A stretch of DNA of 64,000 nucleotides. It comes from an uncultured delta proteobacterium (GTDB lineage Bacteria > Desulfobacterota > Desulfobacteria > Desulfobacterales > JAFDCJ01). The DNA is taken from contig CAVYNY010000008.1 of the NCBI GenBank assembly GCA_963769935.1, positions 64,001-128,000 on the forward strand, read 5' to 3'. Below, piece after piece: positions 15,288-62,496 of the stretch. Within the stretch, counting starts at the first letter, position 1. The number at the start of each line of letters is the position of its first letter. The notes under the pieces were generated by a model. It saw only the letters and a program-made list of their open reading frames with translations. It searched no databases and was not told the DNA's origin. The translations under genes and the position numbers were made by a program.

Positions 15288-15379
15288 TTAATCCGCATTG
15301 AAATATAACTTTTTAAGGTGTGAACGAATTTTTTCGTGAACCCTAAACAGCGATATTGGAATGGTGGAGTGTTGGCGTA

Positions 15380-16450
15380 ATGGAAAAATCAAGCGGCAAA
15401 AATTACATGCTGTCGGCTTTGCGGCGGAAGCGTGCCGATCGGGTTCCGACGACCGTCCTGATAGGCCCTTACTGCTCCCGCCTAACACGATATAGCGTAA
15501 GGGAAATATTGACCGATGCCCGCAAAAGCGCAGAAGCCCATCTGGCTTTTCATGATCGGTTCATGCCGGACAGCCTGATCGTTTACAACGACATCTATCT
15601 TGAAGCGGAAGCTGTCGGCTGTGAGCTGGAATTTCCCGAGAACGGCATTTCGCATCCAAAGTGCGCCCTGCTCGGAGACAAGACAAAACTGGCCCGGCTA
15701 AAGGTTCCCGATCCTCGAAAAGACGGACGAATTCCCTATTTCATTGAAGTTTGTCAACGGGTTTCCGCACAGATTCGTAGGTCGACCGCCCTAGGTCTGG
15801 GACATTCCGGCCCATGGAATATTGCCATGCATCTCAGGGGTGCCGAAGCCCTTCTGATGGACACGGCAACAGATCCCTCCTTCATTCATGAATTGATGAA
15901 ATTCACTACCGAAGTTGTGCGAGCAGTGGGCGATGCATTAATTGAAGTCGGGTTCTCGCCTTCCTTGGGAGAGGCGGCAGCTTCCTGCAGTCTGATTTCA
16001 CCGCGCATCTACCAGGAATTTATCAAGCCCTATCATAAAGAACTCGGTCTCTATTTTAAGTCAAAGAAACGCTACATGTCGCTACATATTTGCGGCAAAA
16101 TCGATCCCATCATGGAAGATATAATCGAAACCGGGATTTTTCTCCTCAGTCTCGATGCCGTCTCATCGCTGCAAAAATGGACCCGCCTGGCGGGCCGCAA
16201 GGTTGTCACCATGGGCAATGTGCCGACAACTCTTTTCAGCAGCGGTACGCGATCTGAAATGGAGGCTTCGATCCGTGCCTGCATTGATACCGCGGCTGCA
16301 GATAGCGGTTATATTCTGGCATCCGGCTGTGAAATTCCATTCGATTCAACCGAAGACCGTATTGCTCATTTTTTTGAATACAGCCGCCAATACGGGCGCA
16401 AATTTATGGAAGGTTTAAATTCCAAATTCCAAGCACCAAATAACAAATAA
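15380..16450 (+). CDS. Uroporphyrinogen decarboxylase-family protein (MtaA/CmuA-like)
   Basis: EAEAVGC, GPWNIA, SLISP..Y.EF, LHICG, GNV, GYILASGCEI. Confidence 0.85.
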   Translation: MEKSSGKNYMLSALRRKRADRVPTTVLIGPYCSRLTRYSVREILTDARKSAEAHLAFHDRFMPDSLIVYNDIYLEAEAVGCELEFPENGISHPKCALLGDKTKLARLKVPDPRKDGRIPYFIEVCQRVSAQIRRSTALGLGHSGPWNIAMHLRGAEALLMDTATDPSFIHELMKFTTEVVRAVGDALIEVGFSPSLGEAAASCSLISPRIYQEFIKPYHKELGLYFKSKKRYMSLHICGKIDPIMEDIIETGIFLLSLDAVSSLQKWTRLAGRKVVTMGNVPTTLFSSGTRSEMEASIRACIDTAAADSGYILASGCEIPFDSTEDRIAHFFEYSRQYGRKFMEGLNSKFQAPNNK

Positions 16451-17090
16451 ATCCCAAAACACAATAGTAAAGATCCGGGTCCAGAGGGCCCGGCTTTGGT
16501 CCACCCCGGAGGGGTGAGATGGGTGATCACGTTTACCAGCAGTTTTCAGGTGTCAGGTGTCAGCAACTGAAGTCGACCCGCTGGGCCGGAGTCCCTCATG
16601 CAATGGACTTTCTTGCAACAGTGTTGATCTTCATTTGCAACCCAATCAGTGTTCAGGATTCAGAATTCGATTTTTACTGACACCTGAGACCTCATATGAA
16701 ACTTCATTAAATTCGATGCCATTTTTACGAAGTGTCTCACCGCCGAAAGCGCCAGAGCGCAGAGATTAATAAAAATTTTCTTTCTCGGCGTTCTCCCACC
16801 GGGGCGTAGGCCCTATGGGCCAGAGGCGGCGGGCTCTGCGGTGAACTATTATGTTTCTTTTTCGATCAGATTGGCCGCTTTTCAGGCCGGCGGATAGGCT
16901 GACACCTGAAACCATGAACAGATTTGGCCTATGGCAAAGCCAATCTCCTCTGACCTGGCCCACAGGACCAGGTTTGCAATTTTGGAATCAACGATCGGAA
17001 CCGGCCAAACCAATGGTGTCCCGTTTGGAATTTTGAATTTTGGGCATTGTAAATTATTTGGGATTTGTTAATTGGAATTTGTGATTTTAA
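16418..17090. repeat. Nested composite of several intergenic repeat families
   Basis: Outer AAATTCC-type arms, inner GGTGTCAG arms, nonamer arms and a 32-bp GTAG module. Confidence 0.75.
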
Positions 17091-29699: not shown

Positions 29700-30294
29700 C
29701 ATTTTATTCCCCCTCCCTCAATCCCTCCCGCAAGGGGAGGGAAGCCATACCGTTCCGGGCGGTTCAACTTTTAATTTATAAATTTCAATCCTGCATAGTT
29801 TTATCTTACCCTCCATCGACGAGAAGGTCTATGGGAGGGGGATAAGTTACTGAAGACATTTTTTCCGTATCACCTCCAAGACGCCTTCCATGTTTTCAAT
29901 TACTTCGTTGTCCCAAAACCTTAACACTGTAAACCCATTTTCAGCAAGAAATCTATCTCTTTTGTTATCTTTCTCCCTATTCATCTTATGCTGGCCACCG
30001 TCCAGTTCAATCACAATTCGTTTTTCAAAACTAACAAAATCTACAATAAGATTTTCTATAGGTTGTTGCCTCCGAAACTTAATTCCCTGAAGCTGCCTCG
30101 CTCTTAGCCTATTCCAGAGTAAAGATTCGACCGCGGTAGAATTTTTTCTTAACTTCTTAGAAAAATGCGTCAGTGCAACTTTCATTATTTTTGGGCCTGG
30201 CATAATTTATAGTCAAGTTACTTGTATAGCTTTAGTAGGAAGCAGTATTGCTTCCCTCCCCTGGCGGGAGGGATTGAGGGAGGGGGATAAAATG
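29700..30294. mobile_element. Putative DUF559 cassette bounded by about 50-bp terminal inverted palindromic repeats
   Basis: 29700-29750 and 30245-30294 are near-perfect reverse complements; a third, degenerate copy lies at 29805-29845. Confidence 0.6.
29847..30203 (-). CDS. DUF559 (Vsr-like PD-(D/E)xK) endonuclease domain protein
   Basis: LRKNST..E..LW, FRRQQPI, IVDF, IELDGGQH, RD..L...G..VLRF. Confidence 0.9.
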   Translation of the reverse strand: MPGPKIMKVALTHFSKKLRKNSTAVESLLWNRLRARQLQGIKFRRQQPIENLIVDFVSFEKRIVIELDGGQHKMNREKDNKRDRFLAENGFTVLRFWDNEVIENMEGVLEVIRKKCLQ

Positions 30295-57097: not shown

Positions 57098-58225
57098 ATG
57101 AAAACCGTTCACAAAATCTTTTTTGAAGATTCAAAAAACATGCGTGCGATCCCGGCTTCAAGTGTGCATCTGGTGGTCACCTCACCGCCCTACCCGATGA
57201 TTGAAATGTGGGATGACCTGTTTAGGCGCCGGAACGTAAAGATAGGCCAAGCACTGAAAAGCAAAAATGCTCCCGAGGCATTTGAATTGATGCACCAACA
57301 GCTGGATCCTGTGTGGCATGAAATTTACCGCATCCTGGTAGACGGCGGAATTGGCTGTATCAATATCGGGGATGCCGTCCGGACCATCAACGATAATTTT
57401 ATGTTGTATGCCAATCATGCAAGAATTCTGAAGGCTCTTTTGAAAACCGGCTTCACCACCCTGCCGCTGATATTGTGGCGCAAGCCCACCAATGCGCCCA
57501 ATAAATTTATGGGTTCGGGAATGCTGCCGGCGGGCGCTTATGTGACCCTCGAACATGAATACATTCTCATTGTTCGCAAAGGCGCCAAAAGAGAGTTTAA
57601 AAGCGACGCGGAGAAACAAAACCGGCGGGAAAGCGCCCTTTTCTGGGAAGAAAGAAACAACTGGTTCTCGGACGTGTGGCTGGGGTTGATCGGCACCCAG
57701 CAAAAGATGAAAAAGGATGCCGCCCGCCTGAGAAGCGCGGCGTTCCCTTTTGAGCTGGCCTATCGCCTGGTGAACATGTATTCCGCCAAAGGCGACACGG
57801 TGGTTGATCCGTTTCTGGGAACCGGCACGACCATGCACTCGGCTGTGGCTTCGGGCAGAAACAGTATCGGCTATGAAATAGAAGCCGGTTTTCAAGATGT
57901 TATTGCGGCGGATAAGGATAGGATGCTCGCAGTTTCCCATGACCGAATACGGCAACGAATCCTGTCCCATCTTGGCTACCTGGAAGCGCGTTCGGATGAA
58001 AAGGGCAAATTCAAGTACTTAAACAGGCGTTATAAGTTTCCGGTAATGACCCGCCAGGAAGTTGAGCTTTTTTTTAATCCGCTGGAAAGTATCAACCGAT
58101 TGAACGACAGCACGCTGGAAGCAACGTACGCCGAGCTTCCCGAGCGGGAATTCGAAGGTGATTGGCAGCAACTATTGCCGGCCGACCCGAAGAAATCAAA
58201 ATCCCGCCAGATAGAGCTGTTTTAG
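57098..58225 (+). CDS. Site-specific DNA methyltransferase (N4-C/N6-A, beta class), orphan
   Basis: Catalytic VTSPPY precedes SAM-binding DPFLGTGTT; no adjacent restriction endonuclease. Confidence 0.92.
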   Translation: MKTVHKIFFEDSKNMRAIPASSVHLVVTSPPYPMIEMWDDLFRRRNVKIGQALKSKNAPEAFELMHQQLDPVWHEIYRILVDGGIGCINIGDAVRTINDNFMLYANHARILKALLKTGFTTLPLILWRKPTNAPNKFMGSGMLPAGAYVTLEHEYILIVRKGAKREFKSDAEKQNRRESALFWEERNNWFSDVWLGLIGTQQKMKKDAARLRSAAFPFELAYRLVNMYSAKGDTVVDPFLGTGTTMHSAVASGRNSIGYEIEAGFQDVIAADKDRMLAVSHDRIRQRILSHLGYLEARSDEKGKFKYLNRRYKFPVMTRQEVELFFNPLESINRLNDSTLEATYAELPEREFEGDWQQLLPADPKKSKSRQIELF

Positions 58226-62003: not shown

Positions 62004-62225
62004 CGAAATATGGCCTCATTTTCATAACGGAACCAGTGGTTCGTGTGTTAATTTAACTTTTTCTATTTATTTTAATAAAAATAATCGATTATGTCAAAAA
62101 TTCGGCCGATAATTTATCAATCTTAAATTCAAATTCAATCGAATTTTATATGAATGGCACGGAGCAGAAAATAAAATCAGACCATCATCCGCTTTTGATT
62201 CGCTATATTCAATATTCCATTCTTC

Positions 62226-62405
62226 TCTCCGATCCGTAGGCTCTACGAGCCGGAGGCCAGCATTCGATTATTCCATGGGTTAACTTACGGCTACAACCAC
62301 CCCTCTCTCCGAGCTGTAGGCTCTGCGAGCCGGAAGCTGGGGTGAAGTCAGAGCCGGACCCTCCCTCCGGGCTGTTGGCCTACGGGCAGGAAGCTGGGCC
62401 AGGAT
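62226..62405. repeat. Three copies of a 31-32-bp GTAG hairpin module inserted in other repeats
   Basis: 62226-62257, 62306-62337 and 62364-62394; a fourth copy at 16796-16827. Confidence 0.8.
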
Positions 62406-62496
62406 TATTTGTTCAACTCAGGGAAGAAGTTCATTAAAAATAGGGGAAAATGGTATGATGGCAGAGCGGGGTTAACAGCAAAAACACCGAAAGCCG

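What the first reader, a model, noticed from the sequence alone, without database searches (positions are those of the whole stretch)
62226..62405. A 32-bp mobile GTAG hairpin module with both empty and filled target sites in the window
Seen: four copies of YCWCCG-N4-GTAG-GCYC-TAY-GRGC-CGGARGC at 16796-16827, 62226-62257, 62306-62337 and 62364-62394 (the last is 31 bp). Each follows a YTC. Removing it restores the host exactly: nonamers ctcggcgtt/ctc|ggcggg/ctctgcggt at 16784-16842, and octamers ttccattc/ttc|cagca at 62215-62270. With its two modules removed, 62298-62405 matches the reverse complement of the uninterrupted sequence at 16471-16516 (CACCCCTC|CGGGGTG...GGGCCCTC|TGGACCCGGAT). The inner stem covaries (GCTC/GAGC versus GCCC/GGGC). 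No clear target duplication (at most one C). Known: GTAG plus hairpin is the signature of REPs handled by HUH (RAYT/IS200-like) tyrosine transposases, which insert without duplication. Inference: an ultra-short, single-unit non-autonomous element that targets other repeats.
Basis: partly seen in the sequence, partly recalled or inferred. Interest (0 to 1): 0.85.

Follow-up and report, generated by a model that had tools for sequence, protein, structure and literature searches.

The report
Widespread 32-base two-halved jumping DNA
This 32-base DNA unit, built from two near-identical 16-base halves, has inserted cleanly after a C at over a hundred different sites in sediment bacteria, including the same codon of unrelated copies of one transposase gene, and it likely moves as a tiny single-stranded circle made by a still unidentified enzyme.

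Summary
Confirmed and extended. The four copies are real. The genome holds about 130-150 copies (null 0-1), with gap-free empty sites in at least seven unrelated host repeats. Near-identical copies occur across Desulfobacterota and in genome bins of several other phyla. Across 122 site clusters the only fixed target base is the preceding C (118/122); YTC holds in 54/122. New anatomy: the unit is two 16-nt halves. Joining its ends completes a second hairpin that mirrors the inner one, and positions 0-6 and 9-29 covary as base pairs; a 33-nt variant changes base 7 and its last base together. Copies nest in each other and sit in mobile genes. Seven divergent TIRYT-type Y1 genes carry it at exactly the same codon (F|Q); an eighth shows the right junction. 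IS91-type and integrase genes are also hit. No REPtron, no inverted doublets, no transcription-orientation bias. Best reading: a non-autonomous ssDNA element moved as a self-aligning 32-nt circle by an HUH transposase acting in trans. Neither circle nor enzyme is shown. It works like REP/IS200-605 elements but fails REPIN membership. I found no description in print.

The parts
62226..62257 (+). 32-nt element, T0/A6 lineage (variant with T at position 7), inserted at TTC|CA in the octamer array of host H
62306..62337 (+). 32-nt element, T0/A6 lineage, inserted at CTC|TG in a hairpin loop of host H
62364..62394 (+). 31-nt form of the element (one C fewer in the inner stem), C0/G6 lineage, in the loop of the right-end hairpin of host H; 11 such forms in the genome
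16796..16827 (+). 32-nt element, C0/G6 lineage, inserted at CTC|GG in the nonamer repeat (host A)
   Evidence: contigs of 3 of 4 public runs skip exactly these 32 bases, probably paralogous empty copies
16471..16516 (-). Empty copy of the two host-H sites that are filled at 62306 and 62364
   Evidence: 37/47 columns, no gap at the junctions; one public contig carries the 31-nt form at position 16484 (table 5c)
16466..16988 (-). Host H: IS200/IS605-like non-coding element of about 520 bp with a hairpin near each end, carrying nested heptamer and nonamer repeats and the copy at 16796
   Evidence: loose ends at 16466 and 16988 and a joint that skips 528 bases
62144..62410 (+). Right part of a host H element that carries three copies of the unit; absent from the orthologous intergenic region of 13 same-genus genomes
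   Evidence: (loose ends at 62144 and 62410)
16784..16842 (+). Nonamer array (host A) interrupted by the unit; 24 empty copies of this site in the genome

Best explanation
This is a non-coding 32-base mobile unit made of two similar 16-base halves that inserts precisely after a C without duplicating the target, and it likely travels as a single-stranded DNA circle cut and joined by an HUH-type tyrosine transposase acting in trans. Shown: fixed ends, precise insertion, C target, nesting, wide spread, covariation between the two ends and bases 5-9. Inferred: in single-stranded form, bases 5-9 pair with both the first two and the last three bases, so the ends are held together and base 7 marks the right-end cut. 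Excision would give a circle of two equivalent guide-plus-hairpin units. Re-cutting at the junction and at a target C would give insertion, with a 3'-C as attacking end on both sides. It accumulates in other mobile DNA because that DNA is dispensable and probably often single-stranded; host repeats then multiply it. The enzyme is unidentified; class-2 Y1 proteins (TIRYT first) are the lead candidates.
For: Copies: 113 at <=3 mismatches; the <=4-mismatch pattern gives 124 vs 0 in a shuffled genome; 146 vs 1 by nhmmer at >=14 bits. Gap-free empty sites in at least 7 host families. Insertion of exactly 32 nt inside a codon of conserved genes. C before the site in 118 of 122 clusters. PMC8266576 (passage, section 11) reports cleavage at C|T and that the attacking 3' base must be C; section 20 shows guide positions 3-4 select the cut dinucleotide (GTAG->CT, GTGG->CC). 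Bases 6-7 predict the joined-end dinucleotide in three forms (AG->C|T, GG->C|C, GC->G|C). Halves match at 11-14 of 16 positions (p<=0.0013). The rotated sequence folds into the two matching hairpins in 6 of the 8 commonest variants. Position 9-29 is Watson-Crick in 133 of 145 distinct sequences against 0-81 when slid by one, and covaries within both lineages. C at base 7 is followed by an extra G in 62 of 63 copies. No bias to transcription direction (33:30 and 23:25). Same-codon insertion in 7 TIRYT genes that are 30-75% identical around the site and scattered on a tree, lying between the HuH and Tyr motifs as REPs do in subclass 2.4 genes (PMC6006769, section 13).
Against: No circle and no enzyme were observed. 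The 7-9/29-31 pairs can also form in the linear state. The 0/6/16/22 block may be one lineage split rather than four pairings, and pair 8-30 is G-G in 46 of 140 sequences. The proposed fold is the circular minimum-energy fold in only 1 of 7 variants, and window copies fold no better than shuffles. The right junction usually does not match the guide: +1 is C in 71 of 89 T0/A6 sites, which I cannot explain. No Y1 gene flanked by the unit was found. TIRYT genes occur in 48 of 61 relatives, many without the unit, and the hot codon shows no extra synonymous conservation in 41 intact genes. Replication-strand bias (45:17) comes from host H; in other hosts it is 20:13. The tree of filled genes is poorly resolved and does not strictly exclude one origin.
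Confidence: 0.6

Rival explanations
1. The unit is mobile and precise, but the enzyme is not an HUH protein: for example an IS110/IS1111 recombinase, a tyrosine recombinase acting on folded ssDNA, an Ssn-like GIY-YIG nuclease with host repair, or an undescribed strand transferase.
For: No HUH gene is linked in cis. These systems also leave no duplication (my knowledge). An IS1111-type element in the same genome is reported by an earlier AI note (e1-9864088, unchecked). Other micro-elements reportedly hit fixed codons of IS3 genes (e1-7599273, unchecked), so a same-codon hot spot need not name the enzyme.
Against: A shared CT core is absent: +1 is T in only 9 of 89 T0/A6 sites. The SRM motif of PMC11893778 matches 0 of 419 copies, and none of 18 GIY-YIG loci carries the unit. 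The invariant C on both attacking ends matches published RAYT chemistry.
Confidence: 0.2
2. HUH-moved, but without a free 32-nt circle: the linear hairpin is copied or transferred in one concerted step, or travels inside larger circles of its hosts, and the two-halved look is only a relic of an ancient duplication.
For: Pairs 7-9/29-31 can form without a circle. Permuted free-standing copies were not found in this genome or in 52 genomes of a carrier family (3 hits, all tandem, nested or partial). A 32-nt circle is strained.
Against: Both halves change together (TATA 240 and CGCG 150 of 419 copies), which needs ongoing selection or conversion between halves. Ends are constant at unrelated sites.
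Confidence: 0.12
3. Passive passenger: a few old insertions were spread by the host repeats and by gene conversion; the unit is no longer independently mobile.
For: Most copies in this genome sit in a few amplified host sites. The orthologous region in relatives lacks the whole host, not just the unit. No clean orthologous empty/filled pair at a unique site was obtained.
Against: 122 distinct site clusters; identical copies in unrelated hosts and in bins of different phyla; the same host hit on opposite strands in different genomes; nested insertions; synonymous bases next to the junction differ among filled TIRYT genes, which excludes one converted donor.
Confidence: 0.05
4. An RNA-level element (micro-intron or retro-element), spliced out of transcripts and re-inserted through RNA.
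For: It interrupts genes at fixed positions; two TIRYT genes (L321, L371) look otherwise intact over the stretch seen.
Against: No orientation bias to transcription; it sits antisense in an IS91-type and an integrase gene; no Rfam match in the window; most interrupted TIRYT genes carry further lesions.
Confidence: 0.03

Closest known systems
REP/BIME and REPIN elements with RAYT (TnpA-REP) enzymes (PMC8266576, PMC3333891, PMC3116915, PMC3733652)
   Same: Short, high-copy, mostly intergenic; GTAG 5' of a hairpin; cut after C; excision as an ssDNA circle is the published model for BIMEs; REPs lie inside their own tnpA genes between the HuH and Tyr motifs in subclass 2.4 (PMC6006769).
   Different: Here the mobile unit is one fixed-ended 32-mer. 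In PMC3116915 singlets are called defunct remnants and the inverted doublet is the mobile unit; I found 0 inverted neighbours among 127 copies. The halves are head-to-tail and the cut lies inside the second hairpin. No REPtron was found. Insertions in Y1 genes shift the frame. The same sequence crosses phyla.
IS200/IS605 elements and their non-autonomous derivatives
   Same: No target duplication, precise insertion 3' of the target, hairpin plus DNA guide, proposed ssDNA circle.
   Different: Target is a single C, not a 4-5-base word. One hairpin in the integrated state. The IS608 guide rule (recalled, not read here) does not fit. Far shorter.
TIRYT / TnpA-Y1 subclass 2.1 (PMC3733652, PMC6006769)
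   Same: Its genes are the recurrent coding target and it is the lead candidate enzyme; PMC6006769 found no REP-like substrate for this subclass.
   Different: TIRYT genes are flanked by terminal inverted repeats unrelated to this unit; no functional link is shown.
Ssn nucleases with NTS/SRM repeats (PMC11893778)
   Same: Short ssDNA hairpin repeats in high copy across phyla.
   Different: The SRM motif matches 0 of 419 copies; no flanked GIY-YIG gene among 18 loci.
Other ultra-short hairpin inserts noted earlier in this scan (e1-7599273, e1-6683751, e1-7598609; unchecked AI notes)
   Same: 20-45-nt precise insertions, fixed codons of transposase genes, enzyme unknown.
   Different: Descriptions differ (palindromes, other targets); none mentions a two-halved design or covariation across the joined ends.

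Membership tests
REP/REPIN-RAYT | GTAG tetranucleotide 5' of a short hairpin | tested here: met
   GTAG in 315 of 419 copies, GTAA in 73; stem 13-17/21-25 covaries
REP/REPIN-RAYT | High copy number, mostly extragenic | tested here: met
   About 130-150 copies; 101 of 107 lie between predicted genes in this genome
REP/REPIN-RAYT | Mobile unit is an inverted doublet (REPIN/BIME) | tested here: not met
   0 of 127 copies have an inverted neighbour within 200 nt; single units have empty sites
REP/REPIN-RAYT | Cognate RAYT gene flanked by the repeat (REPtron) | tested here: not met
   None in the Y1/RAYT loci fetched from 8 genomes or in 30 loci of TIRYT best matches; none in 304 element loci except genes it interrupts or that lie nearby. 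Bins are incomplete, so absence is not proven.
REP/REPIN-RAYT | Cleavage at C|T guided by GTAG | tested here: inconclusive
   C is invariant (118/122). Left and joined-end junctions are C|T only in the T0/A6 lineage; right junctions are mostly C|C. Biochemistry not testable.
IS200/IS605 non-autonomous element | Precise insertion without target duplication | tested here: met
IS200/IS605 non-autonomous element | Fixed 4-5-base target read by a guide at a hairpin foot | tested here: not met
   Only the C at -1 is fixed; -2 is T in 66 of 122; no covariation of base 29 with -3. Pairing rule recalled.
IS200/IS605 non-autonomous element | Active strand on the lagging-strand template | tested here: inconclusive
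   45:17 overall, but carried by host H; 20:13 in hosts A, E, F; GC skew is a weak proxy
IS200/IS605 non-autonomous element | ssDNA circular intermediate made by TnpA | not testable with these tools
   Only indirect: covariation across the joined ends
MITE | Terminal inverted repeats and target duplication | tested here: not met
   No duplication; ends are not inverted repeats
IS110/IS1111-mobilised element | Shared CT core at both junctions and a defined target sequence | tested here: not met
   +1 is T in 9 of 89 T0/A6 sites; no target consensus beyond C. The core rule is recalled.
Ssn/SRM repeat | SRM consensus and flanked small GIY-YIG gene | tested here: not met
   0 of 419 match; 0 of 18 GIY-YIG loci carry the unit
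Known structured RNA | Rfam family match | tested here: not met
   0 matches in the window at gathering threshold

The most novel reading that the evidence does not exclude
A new kind of minimal replicator: a 32-nt single-stranded DNA circle with two-fold symmetry that aligns its own ends through an internal guide, is bound by a dimeric HUH enzyme of the orphan TIRYT (Y1 subclass 2.1) family, spreads across phyla unchanged, and homes into one codon of that enzyme's own gene, switching it off until precise excision restores the frame.
Probability: 0.2. Interest if true: 0.93.

Novelty: new variant of a known kind. Interest (0 to 1): 0.76.

Why it matters
How REP-like hairpins spread is still open: the papers read say the dissemination mechanism is unresolved and treat single REPs as dead remnants. 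This family gives a fixed-ended single unit with over a hundred independent insertion sites, natural variants that change guide and junction together, and a recurrent target codon. That makes the question testable with short oligonucleotides and a handful of candidate enzymes. If the circle model holds, it is among the smallest mobile DNAs, may supply a substrate for a large orphan HUH subclass, and suggests a scar-free way to insert 32 bases after almost any C in single-stranded DNA.

Tried and rejected
1) RAYT next to a copy: the nearest of 11 PF01797 hits in the genome is 5.8 kb away, and ORF clustering around 231 loci showed no transposase. That clustering missed the TIRYT genes because the unit breaks them; a home-built Y1 profile found them. 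2) Target read by the GGAR linker: no covariation of base 29 with target -3. 3) Hairpin-loop targeting as a rule: strong enclosure at 22 of 77 sites vs 2 in shuffles, but only 34 of 77 exceed their shuffle; true for some hosts only. 4) Permuted free copies: none; the two viral hits had no element context and look like chance. 5) A DNA-level signal at the TIRYT hot codon: no extra synonymous conservation, no shared fold. 6) TIRYT presence as predictor: too widespread. 7) Orthologous empty sites at two unique loci: relatives too distant or lacking a larger segment. 8) Public runs: only assembled contigs were served, so excision within a strain cannot be told from paralogues; RNA depth over the repeat is uninformative. 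9) Junction-pattern search in 401 phylum genomes: 10 of 12 hits were unrelated sequence. 10) Plasmids: no match. 11) Ssn/SRM, IS110 core and Rfam: not met. 12) Literature searches found no description; the exact core string gave 0 papers. Figure 1 of PMC3733652, which lists the GTAG family consensus sequences, is not held, so identity with one of those families is not excluded by direct comparison; its four text supplements lack both core 7-mers.

Full report
Observation. Positions in the unit are counted from 0. In the window's genome (G000, 7.99 Mb) the pattern gives 113 hits at up to 3 mismatches, and 124 at up to 4 against 0 in a shuffled genome. A weight matrix gives 131 above score 20 with a reversed-genome maximum of 15; nhmmer gives 146 vs 1 at 14 bits. 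There are 11 copies of the 31-nt form and 6 of a 33-nt form.

Precise insertion. Joining the flanks of each copy and searching the genome gave gap-free empty versions in unrelated hosts: nonamer arrays (two sites), octamer arrays, heptamer arrays, a GCGGT...ACCGC hairpin family, and three hairpin sites of a larger repeat. Empty counts per site motif were 11-87 (two of those motifs overlap). Copies also nest in each other at several internal positions. The clearest proof is in genes, where exactly 32 nt sit inside a codon and the protein alignment resumes at the next residue. The orthologous intergenic region was recovered with both flanks from 13 of 17 same-genus loci; by eye none has the unit, most lack the whole host repeat, and one has an independent host cluster without it. 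Contigs of 3 of 4 public runs skip exactly the 32 bases at 16796, most likely paralogues.

Spread. The unit is in 18 of 22 same-genus genomes and 3 of 38 others of the order, and in 21 of 300 class genomes, 14 of them in one other family. Named carriers are mostly Desulfobacterota bins; identical or near-identical copies lie in bins labelled Verrucomicrobia, Planctomycetota, Acidobacteriota, Lentisphaerae, Fermentibacteria, Bacteroidota and Chloroflexota. Labels of bins can be wrong; the Nitrospinaceae bin shares host repeats with Desulfobacterota, whereas the Verrucomicrobia copies sit in different flanking repeats.

Target. After collapsing duplicates and dropping copies with under 40 nt of flank or a displaced start, 419 copies fall into 122 site clusters. 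The base before the site is C in 118; YTC occurs in 54. The base after the site depends on lineage: C in 71 of 89 T0/A6 sites and 12 of 33 C0/G6 sites (Fisher p 1.6e-5; sites are not fully independent). Copies with C at base 7 are followed by an extra G in 62 of 63 cases; they are 33 nt long and mostly target the TAC loop of other copies.

Anatomy. The unit is a head-to-tail pair of 16-mers matching at 11-14 of 16 positions. Written as a circle it reads linker GTA, hairpin 13-17/21-25 with loop TAC, linker GGA, hairpin 29-31,0,1/5-9 with loop TCC; the second hairpin spans the joined ends. The rotated sequence folds this way in 6 of the 8 commonest variants. Positions 9 and 29 are Watson-Crick in 133 of 145 distinct sequences, against 0-81 when either is slid by one, and they covary inside both lineages. 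The search patterns allowed either base at these positions independently. Positions 0, 6, 16 and 22 change as a block (TATA 240, CGCG 150 of 419), which fits both hairpins, an alternative symmetric fold (6-16, 22-0), or a single lineage split. The 33-nt form restores the base-7 pair with its extra G. Against this: pair 8-30 is G-G in 46 of 140 sequences, the proposed fold is the circular minimum in 1 of 7 variants, and window copies are no more stable than shuffles. One head-to-tail dimer was seen (L195), and 16-nt expansions and lone 16-mers occur. Free permuted copies were not found, so only one of the two symmetric bonds is used.

What it lands in. Host H, which carries three of the window's copies, looks like an IS200/IS605-type non-coding element: TTAT before its left end, TTAC at its right end, AAAA or AAAG at the hairpin feet (the pairing rule is recalled), and a 64:13 bias to the G-rich strand. 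The unit's own bias, 45:17, comes from H; in hosts A, E and F it is 20:13. Orientation to transcription is even (33:30; 23:25). Of 345 insertions in fetched loci, 43 reading frames stayed open across the site, and Pfam scans of their two sides with the sequences identified as truly interrupted Y1 genes, IS91-type Y2 genes (L437, L105) and an integrase (L280); the other Pfam hits (L443, L036, L107, L311) matched one side only and were not followed up. In seven long Y1 genes (L371, L130, L047, L321, L337, L399, G000:C11:108323) it sits at the same base of the motif G-x-L-F|Q-x-R; an eighth contig (L404) starts at that right junction. These genes score below the RAYT cut-off; one shows a DnaA-like tail, and intact relatives have terminal inverted repeats, as described for TIRYT/subclass 2.1. 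They are 30-75% identical over 69 nt around the site; six placed on a tree need 5 changes (shuffled mean 5.5; tree weakly resolved; L399 left out). I read this as repeated independent insertion. Its cause is not shown: the codon has no extra synonymous conservation, TIRYT genes are in 48 of 61 relatives, and other small elements sit at their own recurring spots in these genes.

Mechanism. Shown: fixed ends, precise insertion after C, nesting, spread, covariation. Inferred: an HUH tyrosine transposase cuts ssDNA after C, leaving 3'-C ends that attack the tyrosine-linked 5' ends. This matches the statement in PMC8266576 that the attacking 3' base must be C, and its finding that guide positions 3-4 choose the cut dinucleotide; bases 6-7 predict the joined-end dinucleotide in all three forms. 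Bases 5-9 would hold both ends, giving a 32-nt circle with two equivalent hairpins for a dimeric enzyme. I put 0.92 on a precisely inserting mobile unit, 0.7 on an HUH enzyme, 0.6 on HUH plus circle, and about 0.25 on TIRYT being the enzyme. Unexplained: why the base after the site tends not to match the guide, and why the 33-nt form still inserts after C.

Comparison. It works like REP/BIME and IS200/IS605 elements but is not a REPIN (0 of 127 inverted neighbours, no REPtron), not a MITE, and fails the IS110 core and Ssn/SRM tests. Papers seen: PMC8266576 (abstract, introduction, sections 20 and 23, passages); PMC3733652 (part 2 of the text, passages, search of 4 text supplements; Figure 1 not held); PMC6006769 (sections 13 and 20, passages); PMC3116915, PMC3337134, PMC3333891 and 10.1101/2024.07.17.603846 (passages; bioRxiv supplements closed); PMC11893778 (abstract, passages). 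Ten searches found no description of this unit; the library lacks most subscription papers. Earlier notes of this scan describe other ultra-short inserts with unknown enzymes; they are unchecked, and they lowered my weight on TIRYT.

Verdict. A real, widespread, apparently undescribed micro-element with unusually specific mechanistic clues. New variant of a known kind; interest 0.76.

Noticed in passing
window 16466-16988 (-) and 62144-62410 (+); genome-wide, e.g. G000:C39:24244: Host H is an IS200/IS605-like non-coding element. Its commonest form is a single-hairpin unit of about 42 nt (53 matches; TTAT before 26 of them, TTAC at the end), itself a candidate ultra-short element. No strong IS200-type TnpA hit was found in this genome (best PF01797 score 53 bits).
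   Followed up: partly
L047 (after the Y1 Tyr motif and in the first codons), L414:315-342, L321, G000:C11:108364: TIRYT genes carry other 25-45-nt inserts at their own recurring positions (an inverted-repeat type beginning CCCTGTTAAAT at the same codon in L047 and L414; other palindromes), suggesting several further micro-element families.
   Followed up: no
G007 loci L437, L442, L446, L450, L454, L456; L105 and L112: An IS91-type element with the unit in its transposase gene exists in a form joined at the unit to a different right flank (5 copies), probably a deletion between two copies of the unit that was then amplified. L105/L112 show a similar swap. The unit may cause adjacent deletions.
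   Followed up: partly
L437, upstream of the Y2 gene: Octamer arrays flank a small gene that looks like a four-helix-bundle protein (recalled, not tested), itself interrupted by a variant of the unit.
   Followed up: no
window 15346-16424: A public contig skips 1077 bases, almost the whole uroporphyrinogen-decarboxylase-family gene, next to the heptamer arrays: possibly a mobile cargo gene.
   Followed up: no
G000:C8:62712-62891 (about 1.1 kb before the window start): A truncated RAYT fragment over the NCBIfam cut-off, beside a GTAGGGTGGGC REP-like remnant unrelated to the unit.
   Followed up: partly
window 29847-30203 (-) and 57098-58225 (+): A stand-alone DUF559 nuclease-like gene and an N6/N4 DNA methylase gene.
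   Followed up: no
G000:C13:467437-467484 and C22:601151-601214: Expansions of the 16-nt first half (two and three copies) inside the unit, likely slippage between the halves.
   Followed up: partly
L013, L014, L016: The unit lies between head genes of Mu-like phage contigs inside a heptamer repeat, a possible route for transfer between hosts.
   Followed up: no
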